From the sequence record PP496998.1: a DNA stretch of 64,000 nt; one strand, given 5' to 3'. Each line of letters begins with the position of its first letter. Position 1 is the first letter of the stretch. This document shows, one piece after another, positions 9 to 64,000 of the stretch. The notes under the pieces were generated by a model, which was not told the DNA's origin, searched no databases, and was given only the letters and a program-made list of their open reading frames with translations. Source of the stretch: Escherichia phage EC.W14-3. The translations under genes were made by a program, and so were the position numbers.

Positions 9-224
9 ATGCTCAGCGCCACCGTGCACGTCGCATCGTTGAAAAGCGCGATGGAAAAGCTGCTGTCAGAGGTAAAGACGTTGGACACAAACGAGCTGTC
101 AAGTCTGGAGGCTCTAATGCGTCAAGCAACTTACGTGTTGAATCAGTCAGCTCAAACCGTTCAAACGGCGGCAAAAGTGGTGATCGAGCTGGAAAAGCAA
201 ACGGAGCTAGGAAGGGGGCGTTGA
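9..224 (+). CDS. hypothetical protein; frame is open to the window start so it may be the 3' part of a longer gene
   Basis: ORF track; no stop between position 3 and 9 in frame; no recognisable motif. Confidence 0.3.
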   Translation: MLSATVHVASLKSAMEKLLSEVKTLDTNELSSLEALMRQATYVLNQSAQTVQTAAKVVIELEKQTELGRGR

Positions 225-716
225 GTGGTTCTTGATGACACCTTATCTTACGATGCGGTCACAGGTAACCTATATTACACAAAATCTCCTAGCAAAGGAG
301 TGATGTGGAACAAAAGCCACCCCGGAAAGATAGCTGGATGTATGATATCGAAAGGCTATATCGGTGTGTATTTCCAAGGAAGACGATGGAGAGCGCACCG
401 ACTTATAGCTACGCACTTTATACCAAACCCTAACAATTATCCAGAAGTCAACCACATCAATGGGATAAAAGACGATAATCGACTGGAGAATCTTGAATGG
501 GTATCCGCTTCTGAAAACATACAACATTCCTTTGATACAGGGTTGAATAAAGGGCACACTCGTGACAATAACGGAATGACCAAATTATCCTCTGGAGATG
601 TTGTAAAGATTAAACAGATGTATGTGAAGGGTTCTAGGGATTTTGGCTCTAGAGGTCTTGGTAAGTTGTTTGGCGTGAGCCATACAGCTATACTCCATGC
701 TTTAAAGGAGCTTTAA
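225..716 (+). CDS. HNH homing endonuclease (HNH_3-like)
   Basis: GTG start abutting upstream stop; motif HRLIATHFIPNPNNYPEVNHINGIKDDNRLENLEWVSASENIQHS typical of phage HNH homing endonucleases. Confidence 0.7.
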   Translation: MVLDDTLSYDAVTGNLYYTKSPSKGVMWNKSHPGKIAGCMISKGYIGVYFQGRRWRAHRLIATHFIPNPNNYPEVNHINGIKDDNRLENLEWVSASENIQHSFDTGLNKGHTRDNNGMTKLSSGDVVKIKQMYVKGSRDFGSRGLGKLFGVSHTAILHALKEL

Positions 717-6437: not shown

Positions 6438-6915
6438 AGAACCTGTAGTACATAAAGATTCTATCAGAGATCAATATAATGAGATGTTAAAGAAACAAGC
6501 TGATTCTAATCTTCGTTATCAGAGGATAGTAGAACAATCTAACTTTAAAGGTTTACTTGAATGGTAACTTATATCCTTTACTTTTTAGCTTTCTTAGGAA
6601 TAGTCTTTTTATCTATTCTTATTGAATTTGGTTTAAGTAAGTTAGTTAATTATTTAGGTAATAAGTAATTAATATTCTTTTAAATAGAGAATCAAAGTCC
6701 CTAGGAGTCCCTACAACCTAAATCAAGGATTCCTTAATTCTCTATTTTTATCTCGCAGGTGGCTCCTGCCCTTCGGTACTTGCAAGGGATTCTGTGAATT
6801 GCCCAATATACAAGCCTGCAATAACTTTATCAGCTATACAATATATACATTACTAGTGTGATATATCTACTACCAAAGATACTTATATTATATAGTACTC
6901 TTATCGGTATAAGCG

Positions 6916-6924
6916 TAATGTATA
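6916..6924 (+). promoter_or_regulatory. TAATGTATA motif, candidate phage-sigma-dependent promoter element upstream of the SSB gene
   Basis: exact 9-mer also found upstream of two minus-strand structural genes (17095..17103 and 33925..33933 as reverse complement). Confidence 0.4.
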
Positions 6925-53177: not shown

Positions 53178-53253
53178 GCGCTCTTAGCTCAATGGATAGA
53201 GCAGTAGCCTTCTAAGCTATTGGTTACAGGTTCGAGTCCTGTAGGGCGCACCA
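53178..53253 (+). tRNA. tRNA-Arg, anticodon UCU
   Basis: hand-folded cloverleaf: 7-bp acceptor stem (one G-U), D-arm GCTC/GAGC, anticodon loop CTTCTAA, T-arm ACAGG-TTCGAGT-CCTGT, discriminator A and encoded CCA. Confidence 0.8.
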
Positions 53254-61027: not shown

Positions 61028-62127
61028 CAACTGTAGCGCAAACTTTTGGATATCGAGAAGGTCGTTTAACTGAGGCGCATAGTTCAATTGCACTTCAGTG
61101 CGGTGTCGGTATTGAACTTGAACTCGAAGGTTCTGAACATATCGAAGCAGATATGTGGGATTGCACAGAGGATGGTTCCCTGCGTAACGGTTGTGAAATG
61201 GTATGTTCACGACCTTACAACGGACAGGAGTTGTTAGACGCTATCAACAACCTGAGTGAAGCAGTAGCTGAATCGCACGCCGAGGGGACTTGGCGTTGCT
61301 CTACTCACGTTCATATGGATATGAGGGATGCTGATAGTAATATCCTCAAGAAAACCATTCTCGCTTGGACCTTCTATGAAAAGATGTTGTTCAAGTGTTC
61401 AGGCTATCATCGTTACCGTAGCAACTTCTGCCCTGCTTTCGCAGTAGTACAAGCACAGGTAATGAATGCCTCTGACGCATTTAACTACGACGATGAAGAG
61501 TTCTTCAACCGTCTGGTTCGTTCATGGGATAAATATACATCTCTGAACCTTCTGCCACTTTCCCAATACGGTTCGATTGAGTTCCGTATCAGTGAGCCTA
61601 AGTGGAAACGTGGTCAACTTCTCAATCTGGTTAACCGCTTCTTGATGTTGAAGAAGCTGGCTTTAGATAACGCAGAGATGAGCAATGATCAGTTTATCGA
61701 GCATTTAAATACTGTACGATTTGCCCCAATGCTTCCTTACCTTCCTCTGGATTACAATCTGGACGAATCGGATTTGCATTCAGGGTATTGTATGGCCCGT
61801 GATGTTTTGTATTGCCGTTCTCATGGAGTAGAGCAGTCTGGTCGTATTCGTTTACGTCGAACCAACTCCAACGGAGAAGTTCTTGTTGACTTACGTCTTA
61901 TCTCAAACTTCTACGGATTCCTTGGATATGTACGAGGGAACGCTAACAACTTGTACCAAGAGATTCTGGTTATGCTTCGTACAACTGACCTATCTCAAGT
62001 AAGACACGCTCCAGAACAACGTATTCGTGCTATTTTTGACTTACTACGTGAGTCTGGTCATAGTGATAGCAATATCACAGGGTACATTCCAGACCATCTG
62101 GAAAATCAGTTAGAGCAAGCGCTGTAA
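61024..62127 (+). CDS. amidoligase (GCS2/YbdK-type carboxylate-amine ligase, glutamine-synthetase-like fold), putative
   Basis: N-terminal VGIELELEG, DGSLRNGCEMV and STHVHMD motifs. Confidence 0.5.
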   Translation: MTTVAQTFGYREGRLTEAHSSIALQCGVGIELELEGSEHIEADMWDCTEDGSLRNGCEMVCSRPYNGQELLDAINNLSEAVAESHAEGTWRCSTHVHMDMRDADSNILKKTILAWTFYEKMLFKCSGYHRYRSNFCPAFAVVQAQVMNASDAFNYDDEEFFNRLVRSWDKYTSLNLLPLSQYGSIEFRISEPKWKRGQLLNLVNRFLMLKKLALDNAEMSNDQFIEHLNTVRFAPMLPYLPLDYNLDESDLHSGYCMARDVLYCRSHGVEQSGRIRLRRTNSNGEVLVDLRLISNFYGFLGYVRGNANNLYQEILVMLRTTDLSQVRHAPEQRIRAIFDLLRESGHSDSNITGYIPDHLENQLEQAL

Positions 62128-62206
62128 TCAATGGGTGCCTCTGATAAAGGGGCACAATTTAAAGGTTAATTAGATGAAAGGGTTTACCCTTCAGGTGGAT
62201 TAGAAA

Positions 62207-64000
62207 ATTTGTGGCATCGTATTAGCTGGCGGTAATCTGTCAAGCACTGATTTAGACGTATTTAACCAACTCTTTTATGCTGGAGTATTCCGAGGACAAC
62301 ATTCCTCCGGTATCTTTGGTCAGCGTAAAAGTACTAAGGAAGTCTTCACTTATAAAGAAGCTCTTCCTTCTTTCGCATTCATCCTACAAGATGAGTACAA
62401 GAAGCACACCACTGGTGAAACAGCTTACACTGTAGCACCTTCATGGATTGTTGGTCACAGCCGTCATGCAACGAAAGGTGCAGTTAACGCCAAGAACGCC
62501 CATCCTTTCCAACATGGTAACATCACTCTGGTTCATAACGGAACCTTGATGGACCAAGATCTGTTACCTGACAGCAAAAACTTCGAGGTAGACAGTGAGA
62601 ACATCTGCCACTCTATTAACACTATTGGTGCAGCAGAAACTATTCAAAAGCTGGATGGTGCTTTCACCTTAATCTGGCATGATGCTTCTGATAACCGTCT
62701 TCATATTATCCGTAACGAAGAGCGTCCATTCCACCTCGCACGTTGTAACAGAGATTGGTTTGGTGCTTCTGAAGAAGACATGTTGATGTGGATTCTGAAG
62801 CGTTCTAGATCTCACAAGAACCGTATTGATGAGCATTTTGAATGTAAAGTTGGTACAGAGTATATCTTTGACATGTCAAACAACAGCATGACTCTGGTTG
62901 AAGAGGTCGCCCACGAGCTTCCGGTTTTTACGGTAATCAATCGTTGGGGCAATTACTACTCGAACAACTACAGCCAAAGCAATTATCAAAGTTCCTCAAA
63001 AAGCAGTACAAGCAATCCTTACGACACGAAGCCGGGAGTGACAGCGGCAGACGTTCGTCGAAGAAACGCAGTGGTAAGTCAAAACAAAATCGCAAGCGAT
63101 CGAAACATTGATATTCGCCGCGATATGACTGTGGAAATCACTCCGCATGAGTTTGTTCCTTATGCAACTGCTGGTGCTGTTCCTTCTCGTGGTAAGATGA
63201 TTGGCTATATCTACGATGAGAAGTCTCAAGAGTACATCGAAGGTGATGTTCATAACGTAGACATTAAGGCTTATCAGGATGCACTGAAAGACCCTAAAAT
63301 TGTTTACCGTGGGACAGTATCCTGCATCTCCGAAGTCAATGCTATGGTCCGTTTAGTGATCACAGCAGGTCGTTTTGTTGACCCATCTCTGGAGAAAAAG
63401 GAGCCTGAGTCAACTACTGCTGACTTCGATGATGATATCCCTTTTGATATGAATGATAGTTTCGTCAACAAGAATGGCGTTACTATCACTCGTAAATTCT
63501 GGGAAGCACACTCTCATGGTGATTGTGGTGGTTGTGACAAGCACATTGATTGGAAGGATGCACCTAAAGCAGTCTTCGCATATCAGTGCTATTGGCATCC
63601 TGAATGTCTGGAAGGTTTGACTAAACCTAAAGAGGAAGAGGAGGAGGAAACTCCTATTGGTGTTTGTGAAATCTGCGGTGAAGTTAAAACAGAAAATGAG
63701 TTCGATGATGAACTTAGTCGTCTTCGTGGTGAAGATATCTGTAAAACCTGCGCTGTAGAAGTAAAGAAGAAAGTATCTAATGCTACAATCAAAGATGGTT
63801 ATGTCTGGATTAAAGCAACAGATACAACAAACGCCCGTCGTCCTGAGTTTGCTTTACGTGTAACTGAAGAAATGATCGGTCGTATGACTGTATTACCTTC
63901 CTCAGCGAAACAGACAGGCATCACTCTGGAGGATGTTGTTGATGCTTATGTTGAGAAACGTAGCAACAGTATTTTTGCAATCTCAACTAAGCCAAAAAAG
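62207..64000 (+). CDS. class-II (Ntn) glutamine amidotransferase domain protein with Cys-rich C-terminal region; partial, runs off window end
   Basis: open frame from 62204 to the window end; CGIVLAGG at the N-terminus, GHSRHATKGAVNAKNAHPF, LVHNGTL, later four CxxC pairs; putative ATT start with AGGTGG SD 8 nt upstream. Confidence 0.5.
   Translation, partial: MCGIVLAGGNLSSTDLDVFNQLFYAGVFRGQHSSGIFGQRKSTKEVFTYKEALPSFAFILQDEYKKHTTGETAYTVAPSWIVGHSRHATKGAVNAKNAHPFQHGNITLVHNGTLMDQDLLPDSKNFEVDSENICHSINTIGAAETIQKLDGAFTLIWHDASDNRLHIIRNEERPFHLARCNRDWFGASEEDMLMWILKRSRSHKNRIDEHFECKVGTEYIFDMSNNSMTLVEEVAHELPVFTVINRWGNYYSNNYSQSNYQSSSKSSTSNPYDTKPGVTAADVRRRNAVVSQNKIASDRNIDIRRDMTVEITPHEFVPYATAGAVPSRGKMIGYIYDEKSQEYIEGDVHNVDIKAYQDALKDPKIVYRGTVSCISEVNAMVRLVITAGRFVDPSLEKKEPESTTADFDDDIPFDMNDSFVNKNGVTITRKFWEAHSHGDCGGCDKHIDWKDAPKAVFAYQCYWHPECLEGLTKPKEEEEEETPIGVCEICGEVKTENEFDDELSRLRGEDICKTCAVEVKKKVSNATIKDGYVWIKATDTTNARRPEFALRVTEEMIGRMTVLPSSAKQTGITLEDVVDAYVEKRSNSIFAISTKPKK

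What the first reader, a model, noticed from the sequence alone, without database searches (positions are those of the whole stretch)
62171..62215. GAT-II ORF has no canonical start: in-frame amber codon after a 9-codon upstream ATG, and ATT immediately before the catalytic Cys
Read in frame: TAG ATG AAA GGG TTT ACC CTT CAG GTG GAT TAG AAA ATT TGT GGC ATC. Class-II amidotransferases need Cys as the first residue of the mature protein. Here Cys (TGT, 62210) is preceded by ATT (62207) with a good AGGTGG SD 8 nt upstream (62193..62198), and by an in-frame ATG (62174) separated by a TAG stop (62201). Options: initiation at the rare ATT codon; amber read-through of a short propeptide that is then autoprocessed, as in some Ntn enzymes; translational coupling from the 9-aa leader; or a sequencing error / pseudogene. 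A 5-bp hairpin (AAGGG-TTTA-CCCTT) sits just upstream of the SD.
Basis: seen in the sequence. Interest (0 to 1): 0.6.

Follow-up and report, generated by a model that had tools for sequence, protein, structure and literature searches.

The report
Phage amidotransferase gene starting at ATT
A phiEco32-like coliphage enzyme gene almost certainly starts translation at the rare codon ATT, placed directly before its catalytic cysteine; GenBank already annotates this for phiEco32, but the same ATT start, with a small upstream hairpin, recurs in many distant phage relatives.

Summary
The window is Escherichia phage EC.W8-1 (Kuravirus, phiEco32-like). The class-II glutamine amidotransferase ORF has no ATG, GTG or TTG between the in-frame TAG (62201) and the catalytic Cys codon (62210); only AAA ATT lies between.

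It is neither a sequencing error nor a pseudogene:
- The 66 nt around the site are 98.5-100% identical in about 99 phage records from three genera.
- Synonymous sites of the adjacent coding sequence are saturated, and the 114 codons upstream of the first in-frame ATG have dN/dS 0.06-0.09.

Distant orthologues (Salmonella 7-11, Cronobacter GAP52, Proteus P59, Vibrio Vp_R1) have ATG at exactly the position of the ATT. Cys-Gly-Ile-Val is invariant. The phiEco32, SU10 and LAMP GenBank records already start the CDS at this ATT.

Amber read-through is very unlikely. The phage encodes only tRNA-Arg, TAG is an ordinary stop, and one relative has TAG-TAA before the ATT.

Two results go beyond the finding:
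- ATT or ATC precedes the Cys in about 15 of 109 lineages of this phage enzyme family.
- Eleven of those 15 carry a covarying hairpin abutting the Shine-Dalgarno sequence, against 8 of 86 ATG lineages.

The best reading is AUU initiation. In this phage it may be helped by an infC-like stop-3 nt-AUU junction with the 9-codon upstream ORF.

The parts
62135..62155 (+). Stem-loop just after the amidoligase stop codon (GUGCCUCU-GAUAA-AGGGGCAC). It looks like a terminator or a 3' stabiliser, but has no clear U-tract.
   Evidence: The fold pairs 62135-62142 with 62148-62155. Suseptimavirus has GGGCGC...GGGCGC, a compensatory change. The simple terminator scan did not call it.
62160..62214 (+). Invariant 55-nt leader and initiation block. 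It holds the upstream-ORF initiation region, the hairpin, the Shine-Dalgarno sequence, the spacer, ATT and the first two codons.
   Evidence: It is identical in Kuravirus, Nieuwekanaalvirus and Suseptimavirus. An exact 49-nt match is found in all four compared genomes, while third-codon-position identity next door is only 42-48%. The block is 98.5-100% identical in about 99 records. Aeromonas phage BUCT695 differs at 2 positions from 62168 on.
62161..62165 (+). AAAGG, a Shine-Dalgarno-like sequence 8 nt upstream of the upstream-ORF ATG.
   Evidence: Read from the sequence. It is part of a 12-nt direct repeat, AGGTTAATTAGA 62163-62174 against AGGTGGATTAGA 62193-62204 (10 of 12 identical). I read this repeat off the sequence myself; it was not tested for significance.
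62174..62203 (+). Nine-codon upstream ORF, MKGFTLQVD-stop (ATG to TAG), in frame with the amidotransferase. Its stop lies one codon (3 nt) before the ATT.
   Evidence: It is retained in BUCT695 as MKGLTLQAD-stop. In L183 a 73-codon helix-turn-helix-like ORF ends at the same place instead.
62178..62191 (+). 5-bp hairpin AAGGG-TTTA-CCCTT. Its 3' end lies 15 nt before the ATT and abuts the Shine-Dalgarno sequence.
   Evidence: fold; -4.6 kcal/mol. The equivalent hairpin has a different stem sequence in 11 of 15 ATT/ATC lineages and occurs in 8 of 86 ATG lineages. All 6 stem pairs covary.
62193..62198 (+). Shine-Dalgarno sequence AGGTGG. It pairs either as AGGUG or as GGUGG with a central mismatch. 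It lies 8 nt before the ATT.
   Evidence: Duplex energy with the anti-Shine-Dalgarno sequence is -5.9 kcal/mol. It is homologous in position to the GGAGGA of other ATT lineages.
62207..62209 (+). ATT, the inferred initiation codon, decoded as fMet. Met removal would expose Cys1.
   Evidence: The phiEco32, SU10 and LAMP CDS start here. Orthologues have ATG at the same position. ATT recurs in distant lineages.
62210..62212 (+). TGT, the codon of the catalytic N-terminal Cys of the class-II (Ntn) amidotransferase domain.
   Evidence: Cys1-Gly2-Ile3-Val4 is invariant. Pfam GATase_6 and GATase_7 match.
62207..64000 (+). Amidotransferase CDS, the orthologue of phiEco32 gp83. It runs off the window: 598 of 676 codons lie in the window, and the last 78 codons plus the stop are at record positions 1-237.
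   Evidence: 676 aa, 76.2 kDa. dN/dS is 0.06-0.09 for the first 114 codons.

Best explanation
The gene is intact and is translated from the AUU at 62207. Initiator tRNA places fMet there. Deformylase and methionine aminopeptidase then remove it (Cys is a permitted second residue), which exposes the catalytic Cys1 that every Ntn-type amidotransferase needs.

AUU is a weak start codon that IF3 discriminates against. It sits in a dedicated initiation region: a small hairpin directly 5' of the Shine-Dalgarno sequence, an A/U-rich 8-nt spacer, then AUU-UGU-GG. This hairpin-SD-AUU arrangement recurs in many distantly related phage homologues, so it is a selected way of expressing this enzyme, probably at a low or regulated level.

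In the phiEco32-like phages the region also carries a 9-codon upstream ORF. Its stop lies 3 nt before the AUU, the same geometry as thrS-infC in E. coli. Part of the initiation may therefore come from ribosomes that have just terminated there.

Shown here: the sequence anatomy, its conservation, ATG at the same position in orthologues, the recurrence of ATT, and the association and covariation of the hairpin. Inferred: that AUU is the codon actually used, that the hairpin helps initiation, and the purpose of the weak start.
For: 1. There is no canonical start between the in-frame TAG and Cys1.
2. The 114 codons upstream of the first in-frame ATG are under strong purifying selection (dN/dS 0.06-0.09, dS saturated) and contain the invariant CGIV N-terminus.
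3. Orthologues in Salmonella 7-11, Cronobacter GAP52, Proteus P59 and Vibrio Vp_R1 have ATG exactly where this phage has ATT.
4. The codon before Cys1 in about 160 homologous loci is ATG 123, ATT 26, TTG 7, GTG 3, ATC 1. By lineage, 15 of 109 are ATT or ATC. They are scattered over the tree, with at least 21 start-codon changes by parsimony. None has a canonical in-frame alternative, except a weak TTG in L079.
5. The background frequency of annotated AUU starts in bacteria is 0.004-0.024%, with two genes in E. coli (PMC5499595).
6. A hairpin ending 11-15 nt before the start is present in 11 of 15 ATT/ATC lineages against 8 of 86 ATG lineages (Fisher 4.6e-7). Among genes with an upstream gap of at least 20 nt it is 9 of 11 against 2 of 16 (p 8.5e-4). 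Shuffled sequences give 0.5-5%. All 6 stem pairs covary, and 95% of cells are paired against 63% in shuffles.
7. A covariance model built only from five distant leaders finds the window's element at 62171-62215 (E about 0.04).
8. The 55-nt block is invariant in about 99 genomes.
9. The phiEco32, SU10 and LAMP records annotate the ATT start.
10. The SU10 protein was detected by mass spectrometry with 9 peptides (PMC4281155).
11. In reporter work, hairpins flanking an initiation region stimulated expression, and AUU gave about 1/6 to 1/8 of AUG (PMC3592434).
Against: - No N-terminal protein data exist. The SU10 mass-spectrometry search used the 63.8-kDa form that starts at Met115, so it says nothing about the N-terminus.
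- The Shine-Dalgarno sequence here (GGUGG or AGGUG, -5.9 kcal/mol) is weaker than the GGAGGA of other ATT lineages. On its own, this initiation region would be poor.
- TTG (62209) and GTG (62211) in other frames overlap the site and could compete.
- The hairpin is only 5 bp, and folding of the local region is not more stable than shuffled sequence (z about 0).
- The covariation count was made on an alignment fitted to the model.
- The ATT lineages may be fewer independent events than the poorly resolved NJ tree suggests.
Confidence: 0.85

Rival explanations
1. AUU is the start, but it is reached mainly or only by termination-reinitiation. Ribosomes translate the 9-codon upstream ORF (62174-62203), which has its own Shine-Dalgarno sequence and an ATG. 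They terminate at UAG and restart 3 nt downstream at AUU, held by the GGUGG inside the upstream ORF.
For: The upstream ORF has a plausible initiation region (AAAGG, 8 nt, ATG). It is invariant in about 99 genomes and kept in Aeromonas phage BUCT695. In L183 a 73-codon upstream gene ends at the same position, in the same frame. In L064 and L079 an upstream ORF stops 1 nt before the ATT. The geometry stop-3 nt-AUU is that of thrS-infC, where reinitiation and de novo initiation contributed about equally in reporters (PMC3592434). The weak Shine-Dalgarno sequence here would make help from reinitiation useful.
Against: Six of 16 ATT/ATC lineages have no ORF of any length ending within 15 nt of the ATT, and most sit after a gap of 14-79 nt. 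The upstream ORF in BUCT695 has no Shine-Dalgarno sequence. The two substitutions in BUCT695 are both non-synonymous, so the peptide itself is not conserved. The hairpin begins 1 nt after the upstream-ORF ATG and would hinder initiation there. If a promoter lies at the AATGTA-like motif just upstream, as it may in BUCT695, the transcript could start at or after the upstream-ORF ATG (for the -11.5 position; this is inference).
Confidence: 0.25
2. Amber read-through: translation starts at ATG 62174, reads through TAG 62201, and a 12-residue propeptide is then removed autocatalytically to expose Cys1, as in Bacillus subtilis PurF.
For: The ATG and the amidotransferase are in frame, and that frame is kept in BUCT695. 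Some Ntn enzymes do carry propeptides (established knowledge).
Against: The complete phage genome has no suppressor tRNA, only tRNA-Arg(TCT). TAG terminates 9 of 63 long ORFs. L183 has TAG TAA in tandem before the ATT. Other ATT lineages have in-frame stops 1-7 codons upstream and no ATG. Orthologues with ATG have no propeptide.
Confidence: 0.03
3. The true product starts at the first in-frame ATG (Met115, 62549) or at another internal start, as annotated in phage Paul and WFI101126 (Met115 equivalent) and, at other internal starts, in ECBP2, SU7 and KBNP1711. The upstream 114 codons would then be untranslated, or the gene would be a decaying pseudogene or carry a sequencing error.
For: Automatic gene callers choose these starts. 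The SU10 proteomics table lists the 63.8-kDa form.
Against: The upstream 114 codons have dN/dS 0.06-0.09 with saturated dS. They hold the invariant catalytic Cys1 and other invariant residues. A protein starting at Met115 would lack the nucleophile. The ATT is identical in about 99 independently sequenced genomes. The ORF is open over 676 codons.
Confidence: 0.02

Closest known systems
E. coli infC (IF3) AUU start codon at the thrS-infC junction
   Same: AUU is used as the initiation codon. A Shine-Dalgarno sequence lies upstream. [quoted passage not shown] The AUU is phylogenetically conserved (PMC3592434, PMC5499595).
   Different: In infC the AUU serves autoregulation by its own product, IF3. 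Here the product is an amidotransferase with no known link to IF3. The preceding ORF is a 9-codon mini-ORF rather than a full gene. A hairpin abuts the Shine-Dalgarno sequence. IF3 dependence was not tested.
E. coli pcnB (poly(A) polymerase) AUU start
   Same: An AUU start is used to limit translation of an enzyme that is harmful in excess (Binns and Masters 2002, as cited in PMC3592434). That is the most likely purpose here too.
   Different: There is no evidence here of toxicity or of expression level. pcnB has no reported conserved hairpin-SD module.
Bacillus subtilis PurF-type propeptide processing of Ntn amidotransferases
   Same: The enzyme superfamily is the same, and so is the need for a free N-terminal Cys.
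   Different: PurF of B. subtilis is made with an 11-residue propeptide from a normal start (from my own knowledge). Here an in-frame stop separates the upstream ATG from the Cys, and orthologues start with Met-Cys.
phiEco32 gp83 / SU10 gp85 / LAMP gp83 (GenBank CDS annotations)
   Same: It is the same gene at 97-99% DNA identity. These CDS begin at the very same ATT.
   Different: No paper found in the library discusses the ATT start. Many sister records annotate truncated proteins. In the present record the gene is not annotated at all.

Membership tests
Class-II (Ntn) glutamine amidotransferase domain | Sequence match to the class-II GATase domain models | tested here: met
   Pfam GATase_6 at 9e-15 (55.3 bits, cut-off 27) and GATase_7 at 3e-6 (27.7 bits, cut-off 25). 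GATase_4 is below its cut-off. phmmer found no PDB match by sequence.
Class-II (Ntn) glutamine amidotransferase domain | Catalytic Cys as the first residue of the mature protein, directly after the initiator codon | tested here: met
   Cys1-Gly2-Ile3-Val4 is invariant in 8 diverse homologues. In about 160 loci the Cys-Gly follows a start-type codon directly. In this window that codon is ATT.
Class-II (Ntn) glutamine amidotransferase domain | Glutaminase or amide-transfer activity | not testable with these tools
   No biochemical data. The C-terminal roughly 430 residues have no Pfam assignment.
AUU-initiated bacterial and phage genes (infC/pcnB type) | AUU at the position where orthologues have AUG, with no canonical in-frame alternative | tested here: met
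   (no alternative). (ATG in orthologues at the same position).
AUU-initiated bacterial and phage genes (infC/pcnB type) | Shine-Dalgarno sequence at functional spacing | tested here: met
   AGGTGG 62193-62198, 8 nt before the ATT. Duplex energy is -5.9 kcal/mol, similar to the family median. The match to the anti-Shine-Dalgarno sequence is imperfect.
AUU-initiated bacterial and phage genes (infC/pcnB type) | Protein N-terminus mapped to the AUU; dependence of expression on IF3 | not testable with these tools
   The only proteomic data (SU10, PMC4281155) used a database entry starting at Met115.
Termination-reinitiation (translational coupling) junction | A translatable upstream ORF whose stop lies within a few nt of the restart codon | tested here: met
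   Upstream ORF 62174-62203 with AAAGG 8 nt before its ATG; its stop is 3 nt before the ATT.
Termination-reinitiation (translational coupling) junction | The junction is conserved wherever the unusual start is found | tested here: not met
   It is present in the phiEco32-like group, BUCT695, L183, L064 and L079. It is absent in 6 of 16 ATT/ATC lineages, and most have gaps of 14-79 nt.
Programmed stop-codon read-through or recoded TAG | Suppressor tRNA, or genome-wide avoidance of TAG as a stop | tested here: not met
   Only tRNA-Arg(TCT) in the whole genome. TAG ends 9 of 63 ORFs of at least 100 aa.
Intrinsic terminator (for the 62178-62191 hairpin) | G+C-rich stem followed by a U-tract | tested here: not met
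   The hairpin is followed by CAGGTGG, not by a T run. The terminator scan did not call it.
Known RNA families (Rfam 15) | Match to a curated covariance model | tested here: not met
   Only chance-level hits in 61900-62500, with E of 0.66 or more and all far below gathering scores.

The most novel reading that the evidence does not exclude
The hairpin-SD-8 nt-AUU leader is a previously undescribed, widely conserved cis-acting translation element of phage Ntn-amidotransferase genes. The hairpin stacked next to the SD/anti-SD helix would make initiation at the IF3-disfavoured AUU possible. It would tie enzyme synthesis to the state of the host initiation machinery (IF3 and ribosome availability during infection). 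In phiEco32-like phages it is combined with an infC-like stop-3 nt-AUU mini-ORF. That overlap of functions would explain why 55 nt stay invariant while neighbouring synonymous sites are saturated.
Probability: 0.3. Interest if true: 0.6.

Novelty: new member of a known kind. Interest (0 to 1): 0.4.

Why it matters
Practical value. Gene callers that allow only ATG, GTG and TTG truncate or miss this gene. Examples are Paul, WFI101126, ECBP2, SU7, KBNP1711 and the present record. The annotated products then lack the catalytic cysteine and would be read as inactive, and spurious features such as a "terminator" get placed inside the real ORF. A simple rule would repair these annotations: extend to the codon before the conserved Cys-Gly and accept ATT.

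Biological value. AUU starts are very rare; E. coli has two. A protein family in which about one lineage in seven uses AUU, usually with a covarying hairpin next to the Shine-Dalgarno sequence, offers a natural comparative system. It could show what makes a non-canonical start work and why it is selected. The result does not change what is known about AUU initiation itself.

Tried and rejected
- Rfam search of 61900-62500 at a permissive threshold gave nothing meaningful.
- I looked for a gp36 (phage sigma) promoter in front of the gene. The consensus is AATGTA centred at -11.5 (PMC12276001). This phage has AAGGTT at the homologous place, while BUCT695 and several Grimontviridae have AATGTA. 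The SU10 promoter table lists no promoter or terminator here. TAATGTATA-like matches in the window occur at chance frequency. The promoter question stays open.
- A sigma-70-like antisense promoter at 62243-62216 (10 of 12 matches) is not conserved in other genera, so I dropped it.
- Folding the leader for a structure that sequesters the Shine-Dalgarno sequence and the AUU gave only a weak G-U-rich helix, with z-scores near 0.
- A search for the hairpin elsewhere in viral contigs found only the same five phiEco32-like genomes.
- The motif TAGATGAAAGG is not repeated in the window above chance.
- The Shine-Dalgarno sequence is not stronger in ATT genes than in ATG genes (p 0.46), so compensation by a stronger Shine-Dalgarno sequence is rejected.
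- The Savalia 2008 and Pavlova 2012 phiEco32 papers are not held in the library. I could not check whether they comment on the start codon or map 5' ends here.
- A PDB sequence search with the N-terminal domain found nothing.
- I considered frameshifting on A-AAA-TTT-G and rejected it. No upstream ORF with a start exists in the other frames (read directly).
Full report
IDENTITY OF THE WINDOW AND CHECK OF THE OBSERVATION

The last 3 kb of the window are 100% identical to Escherichia phage EC.W8-1 (PQ030848.1). This is a Kuravirus of the subfamily Gordonclarkvirinae, that is, a phiEco32-like podophage. The same 3 kb are 97-98% identical to phiEco32, SU10 and about 65 other records.

- TAG 62171, ATG 62174, then AAA GGG TTT ACC CTT CAG GTG GAT.
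- TAG 62201, AAA, ATT 62207, TGT 62210, GGC ATC.
- AGGTGG at 62193-62198, 8 nt before the ATT.
- Hairpin AAGGG-TTTA-CCCTT at 62178-62191.

No canonical-start ORF covers this part of the frame. The frame is open from 62204 to the window end. The gene continues for 78 codons past the end of the record, which is circularly permuted. The full product is 676 residues and 76.2 kDa. Pfam confirms a class-II amidotransferase domain, GATase_6 at 9e-15 and GATase_7 at 3e-6. The neighbours are the Amidoligase_2 and COOH-NH2 ligase genes typical of this phage module.

NOT AN ERROR AND NOT A PSEUDOGENE

The 66 nt at 62160-62225 are 98.5-100% identical in about 99 independently sequenced phage records. The only variable base is the wobble position of the Gly2 codon.

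Between the three genera Kuravirus, Nieuwekanaalvirus and Suseptimavirus, the first 114 codons of the ORF lie upstream of the first in-frame ATG. For those codons:
- Nucleotide identity is 70-74%.
- Third-position identity is 42-48%.
- dS is 1.7 or saturated.
- dN/dS is 0.06-0.09.

So this stretch is translated in this frame under strong purifying selection. It contains the invariant Cys1-Gly2-Ile3-Val4 and many other invariant residues. A protein starting at Met115 (63.8 kDa) would lack the nucleophile.

WHICH CODON STARTS THE PROTEIN

More distant orthologues have a plain ATG exactly where this phage has ATT, followed by TGT/TGC GG. These are Salmonella phage 7-11, Cronobacter phage GAP52, Proteus phage P59 and Vibrio phage Vp_R1.

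The GenBank and RefSeq CDS of phiEco32 (phi32_83), SU10 (SU10_085) and LAMP (phiL_083) begin at the very same ATT. The ATT start is therefore already the curated annotation for the type phage. I found no paper in the library that discusses it. The two primary phiEco32 papers are not held.

Other records annotate truncated products:
- ECBP2 and SU7 start 27 nt downstream.
- KBNP1711 starts 132 nt downstream.
- Paul and WFI101126 start at Met115.

In the present record the gene is not annotated at all. Its last 70 codons appear as a "hypothetical protein".

The SU10 study detected the protein by mass spectrometry, with 9 peptides and 23.7% coverage (PMC4281155). The "expected mass" of 63.8 kDa in that table equals the Met115 form. 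That experiment therefore proves expression but says nothing about the N-terminus.

ATT IS RECURRENT IN THE FAMILY

I collected about 180 homologous loci from viral contigs, metagenomes and genomes. I then read the codon directly before the conserved Cys-Gly. Counts by locus were ATG 123, ATT 26, TTG 7, GTG 3 and ATC 1. One further locus has Met-Cys-Cys.

After collapsing near-identical leaders, 15 of 109 lineages use ATT or ATC. The ATT lineages share only 30-45% protein identity with the phage studied here. They are scattered over a neighbour-joining tree, with at least 21 start-codon changes by parsimony. The tree is poorly resolved, so the true number of independent events is uncertain. 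One very close pair, L058 (ATG) and L064 (ATT), shows a recent switch.

In every ATT case an in-frame stop lies 1-18 codons upstream, with no canonical start in between. The one exception is a weakly placed TTG in L079.

For comparison, annotated AUU starts make up 0.004-0.024% of bacterial genes, and E. coli has two, infC and pcnB (PMC5499595). This recurrence is the strongest argument that the ATT is really used.

A HAIRPIN GOES WITH THE ATT

Reading the leaders side by side shows a common layout:
- A 5-8 bp hairpin with a 3-5 nt loop.
- Then, 0-2 nt later, a Shine-Dalgarno sequence (mostly GGAGGA).
- Then an A/T-rich spacer of about 8 nt, then ATT TGT GG.

The stems differ completely between lineages. 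Examples are AAGGG/CCCTT here, GAGGTC/GACCTC, AGAGTC/GACTCT, AAACCG/CGGTTT, CCTAGA/TCTAGG, AGACTAA/TTAGTCT and AGCGC/GCGCT.

I scored a hairpin as present if it was -3 kcal/mol or more stable and ended 9-24 nt before the start. In practice these ended 11-15 nt before it. The statistics are:
- Present in 11 of 15 ATT/ATC lineages and 8 of 86 ATG lineages (Fisher p 4.6e-7).
- Restricted to genes with an upstream gap of at least 20 nt: 9 of 11 against 2 of 16 (p 8.5e-4).
- Shuffled upstream sequence gives such a hairpin in 0.5-5% of trials for most lineages.

A covariance model built from five distant leaders only recovers six more ATT leaders in 396 kb, each exactly at the start site. These include the window's element at 62171-62215 (E about 0.04, rough) and BUCT695. 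On the resulting alignment all six stem pairs show changes on both sides. 95% of cells are paired, against 63% in shuffles and 20-57% when partners are slid. The caveat is that this alignment was fitted to the model.

ATT genes do not have stronger Shine-Dalgarno sequences than ATG genes. They differ in context. ATG genes mostly abut or overlap the upstream gene, while ATT genes mostly follow a gap of 14-79 nt.

In a reporter study, hairpins flanking an initiation region stimulated expression and AUU gave about 1/6 to 1/8 of AUG (PMC3592434). This fits a helper role for the hairpin, but that role is inference.

THE INVARIANT BLOCK AND THE MINI-ORF

In the phiEco32-like phages the whole 55-nt stretch 62160-62214 is invariant across three genera. 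Neighbouring synonymous sites are saturated.

Aeromonas phage BUCT695 belongs to another family (Grimontviridae), and its enzyme is only 54% identical. It carries the same element with two substitutions from 62168 on:
- Loop TTTA becomes TTAA.
- AGGTGG becomes AGGCGG.

Closer ATG-start relatives (59-64% identical; L017-L019) lack the element. This means either very strong conservation or transfer of the leader. I did not resolve which.

The block contains a 9-codon ORF at 62174-62203, with AAAGG 8 nt before its ATG. Its TAG lies one codon before the ATT. The two initiation regions are a 10-of-12 direct repeat (AGGTTAATTAGA and AGGTGGATTAGA). I read this off the sequence by eye and did not test it.

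In L183 there is no mini-ORF. A short contig in a Herbiconiux assembly, it looks phage-derived. Its 73-codon helix-turn-helix-like gene runs through a longer version of the same hairpin, in the same frame, and ends with TAG TAA directly before the ATT. BUCT695 has the remnant of such a gene, closed by stops, in the same frame. The mini-ORF may therefore be what is left of an upstream gene that ended at this junction.

Stop-3 nt-AUU is exactly the geometry of thrS-infC. There, de novo initiation and reinitiation contributed about equally in reporters (PMC3592434). Coupling therefore remains a reasonable contributor in this phage. It is not general: 6 of 16 ATT/ATC lineages have no ORF ending within 15 nt of the start.

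READ-THROUGH

The complete phage genome encodes a single tRNA, tRNA-Arg(TCT). TAG terminates 9 of 63 ORFs of at least 100 codons. L183 has two stops in tandem before the ATT. Most ATT lineages have no upstream in-frame ATG. ATG-start orthologues have no propeptide. I give read-through about 3%.

MECHANISM, WITH STATUS OF EACH STEP

1. The ORF is functional and begins at Cys1. This is shown by conservation.
2. The codon before it, AUU, is the initiation codon. This is strongly inferred from position, orthologues and recurrence, but not shown experimentally.
3. fMet is removed to expose Cys1. This follows from established knowledge of methionine aminopeptidase specificity and of Ntn enzymes.
4. 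The hairpin next to the Shine-Dalgarno sequence assists or insulates initiation at the weak codon. The association and covariation are shown; the function is inferred.
5. In this phage, ribosomes terminating on the mini-ORF contribute. This is possible and untested.
6. The purpose is low or IF3-sensitive expression of a glutamine-hydrolysing enzyme. This is speculation by analogy with pcnB and infC.

COMPARISON WITH KNOWN SYSTEMS AND NOVELTY

It works like the AUU-initiated genes infC and pcnB. It passes the sequence-level tests for that kind (see the membership table). The protein-level and IF3 tests cannot be done here. It is a member of the class-II amidotransferase family by domain match and by the Cys1 criterion. 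It is not an example of read-through, not an intrinsic terminator, and not a known Rfam family.

The ATT start itself is already in GenBank, so the original finding is largely a rediscovery of an existing annotation. As far as I could find, two things are not described: the recurrence of ATT across this phage enzyme family, and its association with a covarying hairpin. These are worth a modest follow-up.

Overall interest is 0.4.

Noticed in passing
window 62207-64000, and PQ030848.1 positions 1-237 (L202): In the source record the amidotransferase gene is cut by the arbitrary origin of the circularly permuted record and is not annotated. Only its last 70 codons appear, as a "hypothetical protein" at 25..237.
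   Followed up: yes
window 62289-62310 (= NC_070991.1 55929-55950; L201 1290-1311): Phage WFI101126 annotates a "terminator" here, and the simple scan also calls GAGGACAACATTCCTC plus a T-rich tail. It lies inside the conserved N-terminal coding region of the amidotransferase. It is probably an artefact of the truncated CDS annotation.
   Followed up: partly
window 62135-62155: An 8-bp stem-loop lies right after the amidoligase stop codon. Suseptimavirus has compensatory changes (GGGTGCC.. becomes GGGCGC..). There is no clear U-tract, and its function (terminator, processing site or 3' stabiliser) is unknown.
   Followed up: partly
L010 1305-1505 (Aeromonas phage BUCT695) and L183 1-222: A small helix-turn-helix-like ORF (...VGCSQ.H[VI]SKLE.GKY...) lies directly upstream of the ATT leader in both. 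It is unannotated in BUCT695. In L183 it runs through the hairpin and ends at the TAG TAA before the ATT. phiEco32-like phages lack it.
   Followed up: partly
L010 1500-1560 against window 62160-62220: BUCT695 shares the near-identical leader with phiEco32-like phages, although its enzyme is only 54% identical. Closer ATG-start relatives (59-64% identical; L017-L019) lack the leader. This suggests either extreme conservation with losses, or lateral transfer of the leader.
   Followed up: no
L132, L148, L150, L185, L048/L164 (start regions): Several distant ATT-start homologues have two near-cognate codons in tandem (ATT ATT or ATC ATT) before the Cys codon. Only the second would give Met-Cys.
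   Followed up: no
window 62216-62243, minus strand: A sigma-70-like promoter match (TTGACA, 16 nt, TACGAT; 10 of 12) points antisense into the leader. The -35 hexamer is not conserved in the other genera.
   Followed up: partly
window 6844(-), 6916(+), 17095(-), 33925(-): Exact TAATGTATA motifs, the consensus of gp36 (phage sigma) middle and late promoters. Two of them face each other about 70 nt apart near 6850-6920.
   Followed up: no
window 53178-53253: tRNA-Arg (anticodon TCT), the only tRNA gene in the whole phage genome.
   Followed up: yes
L004 (KF981730.1) and L005 (NC_018859.1): Product names are displaced in some records. The Amidoligase_2 gene of KBNP1711 is labelled "L-glutamine-D-fructose-6-phosphate aminotransferase-like", while the true amidotransferase is called "hypothetical protein".
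   Followed up: no
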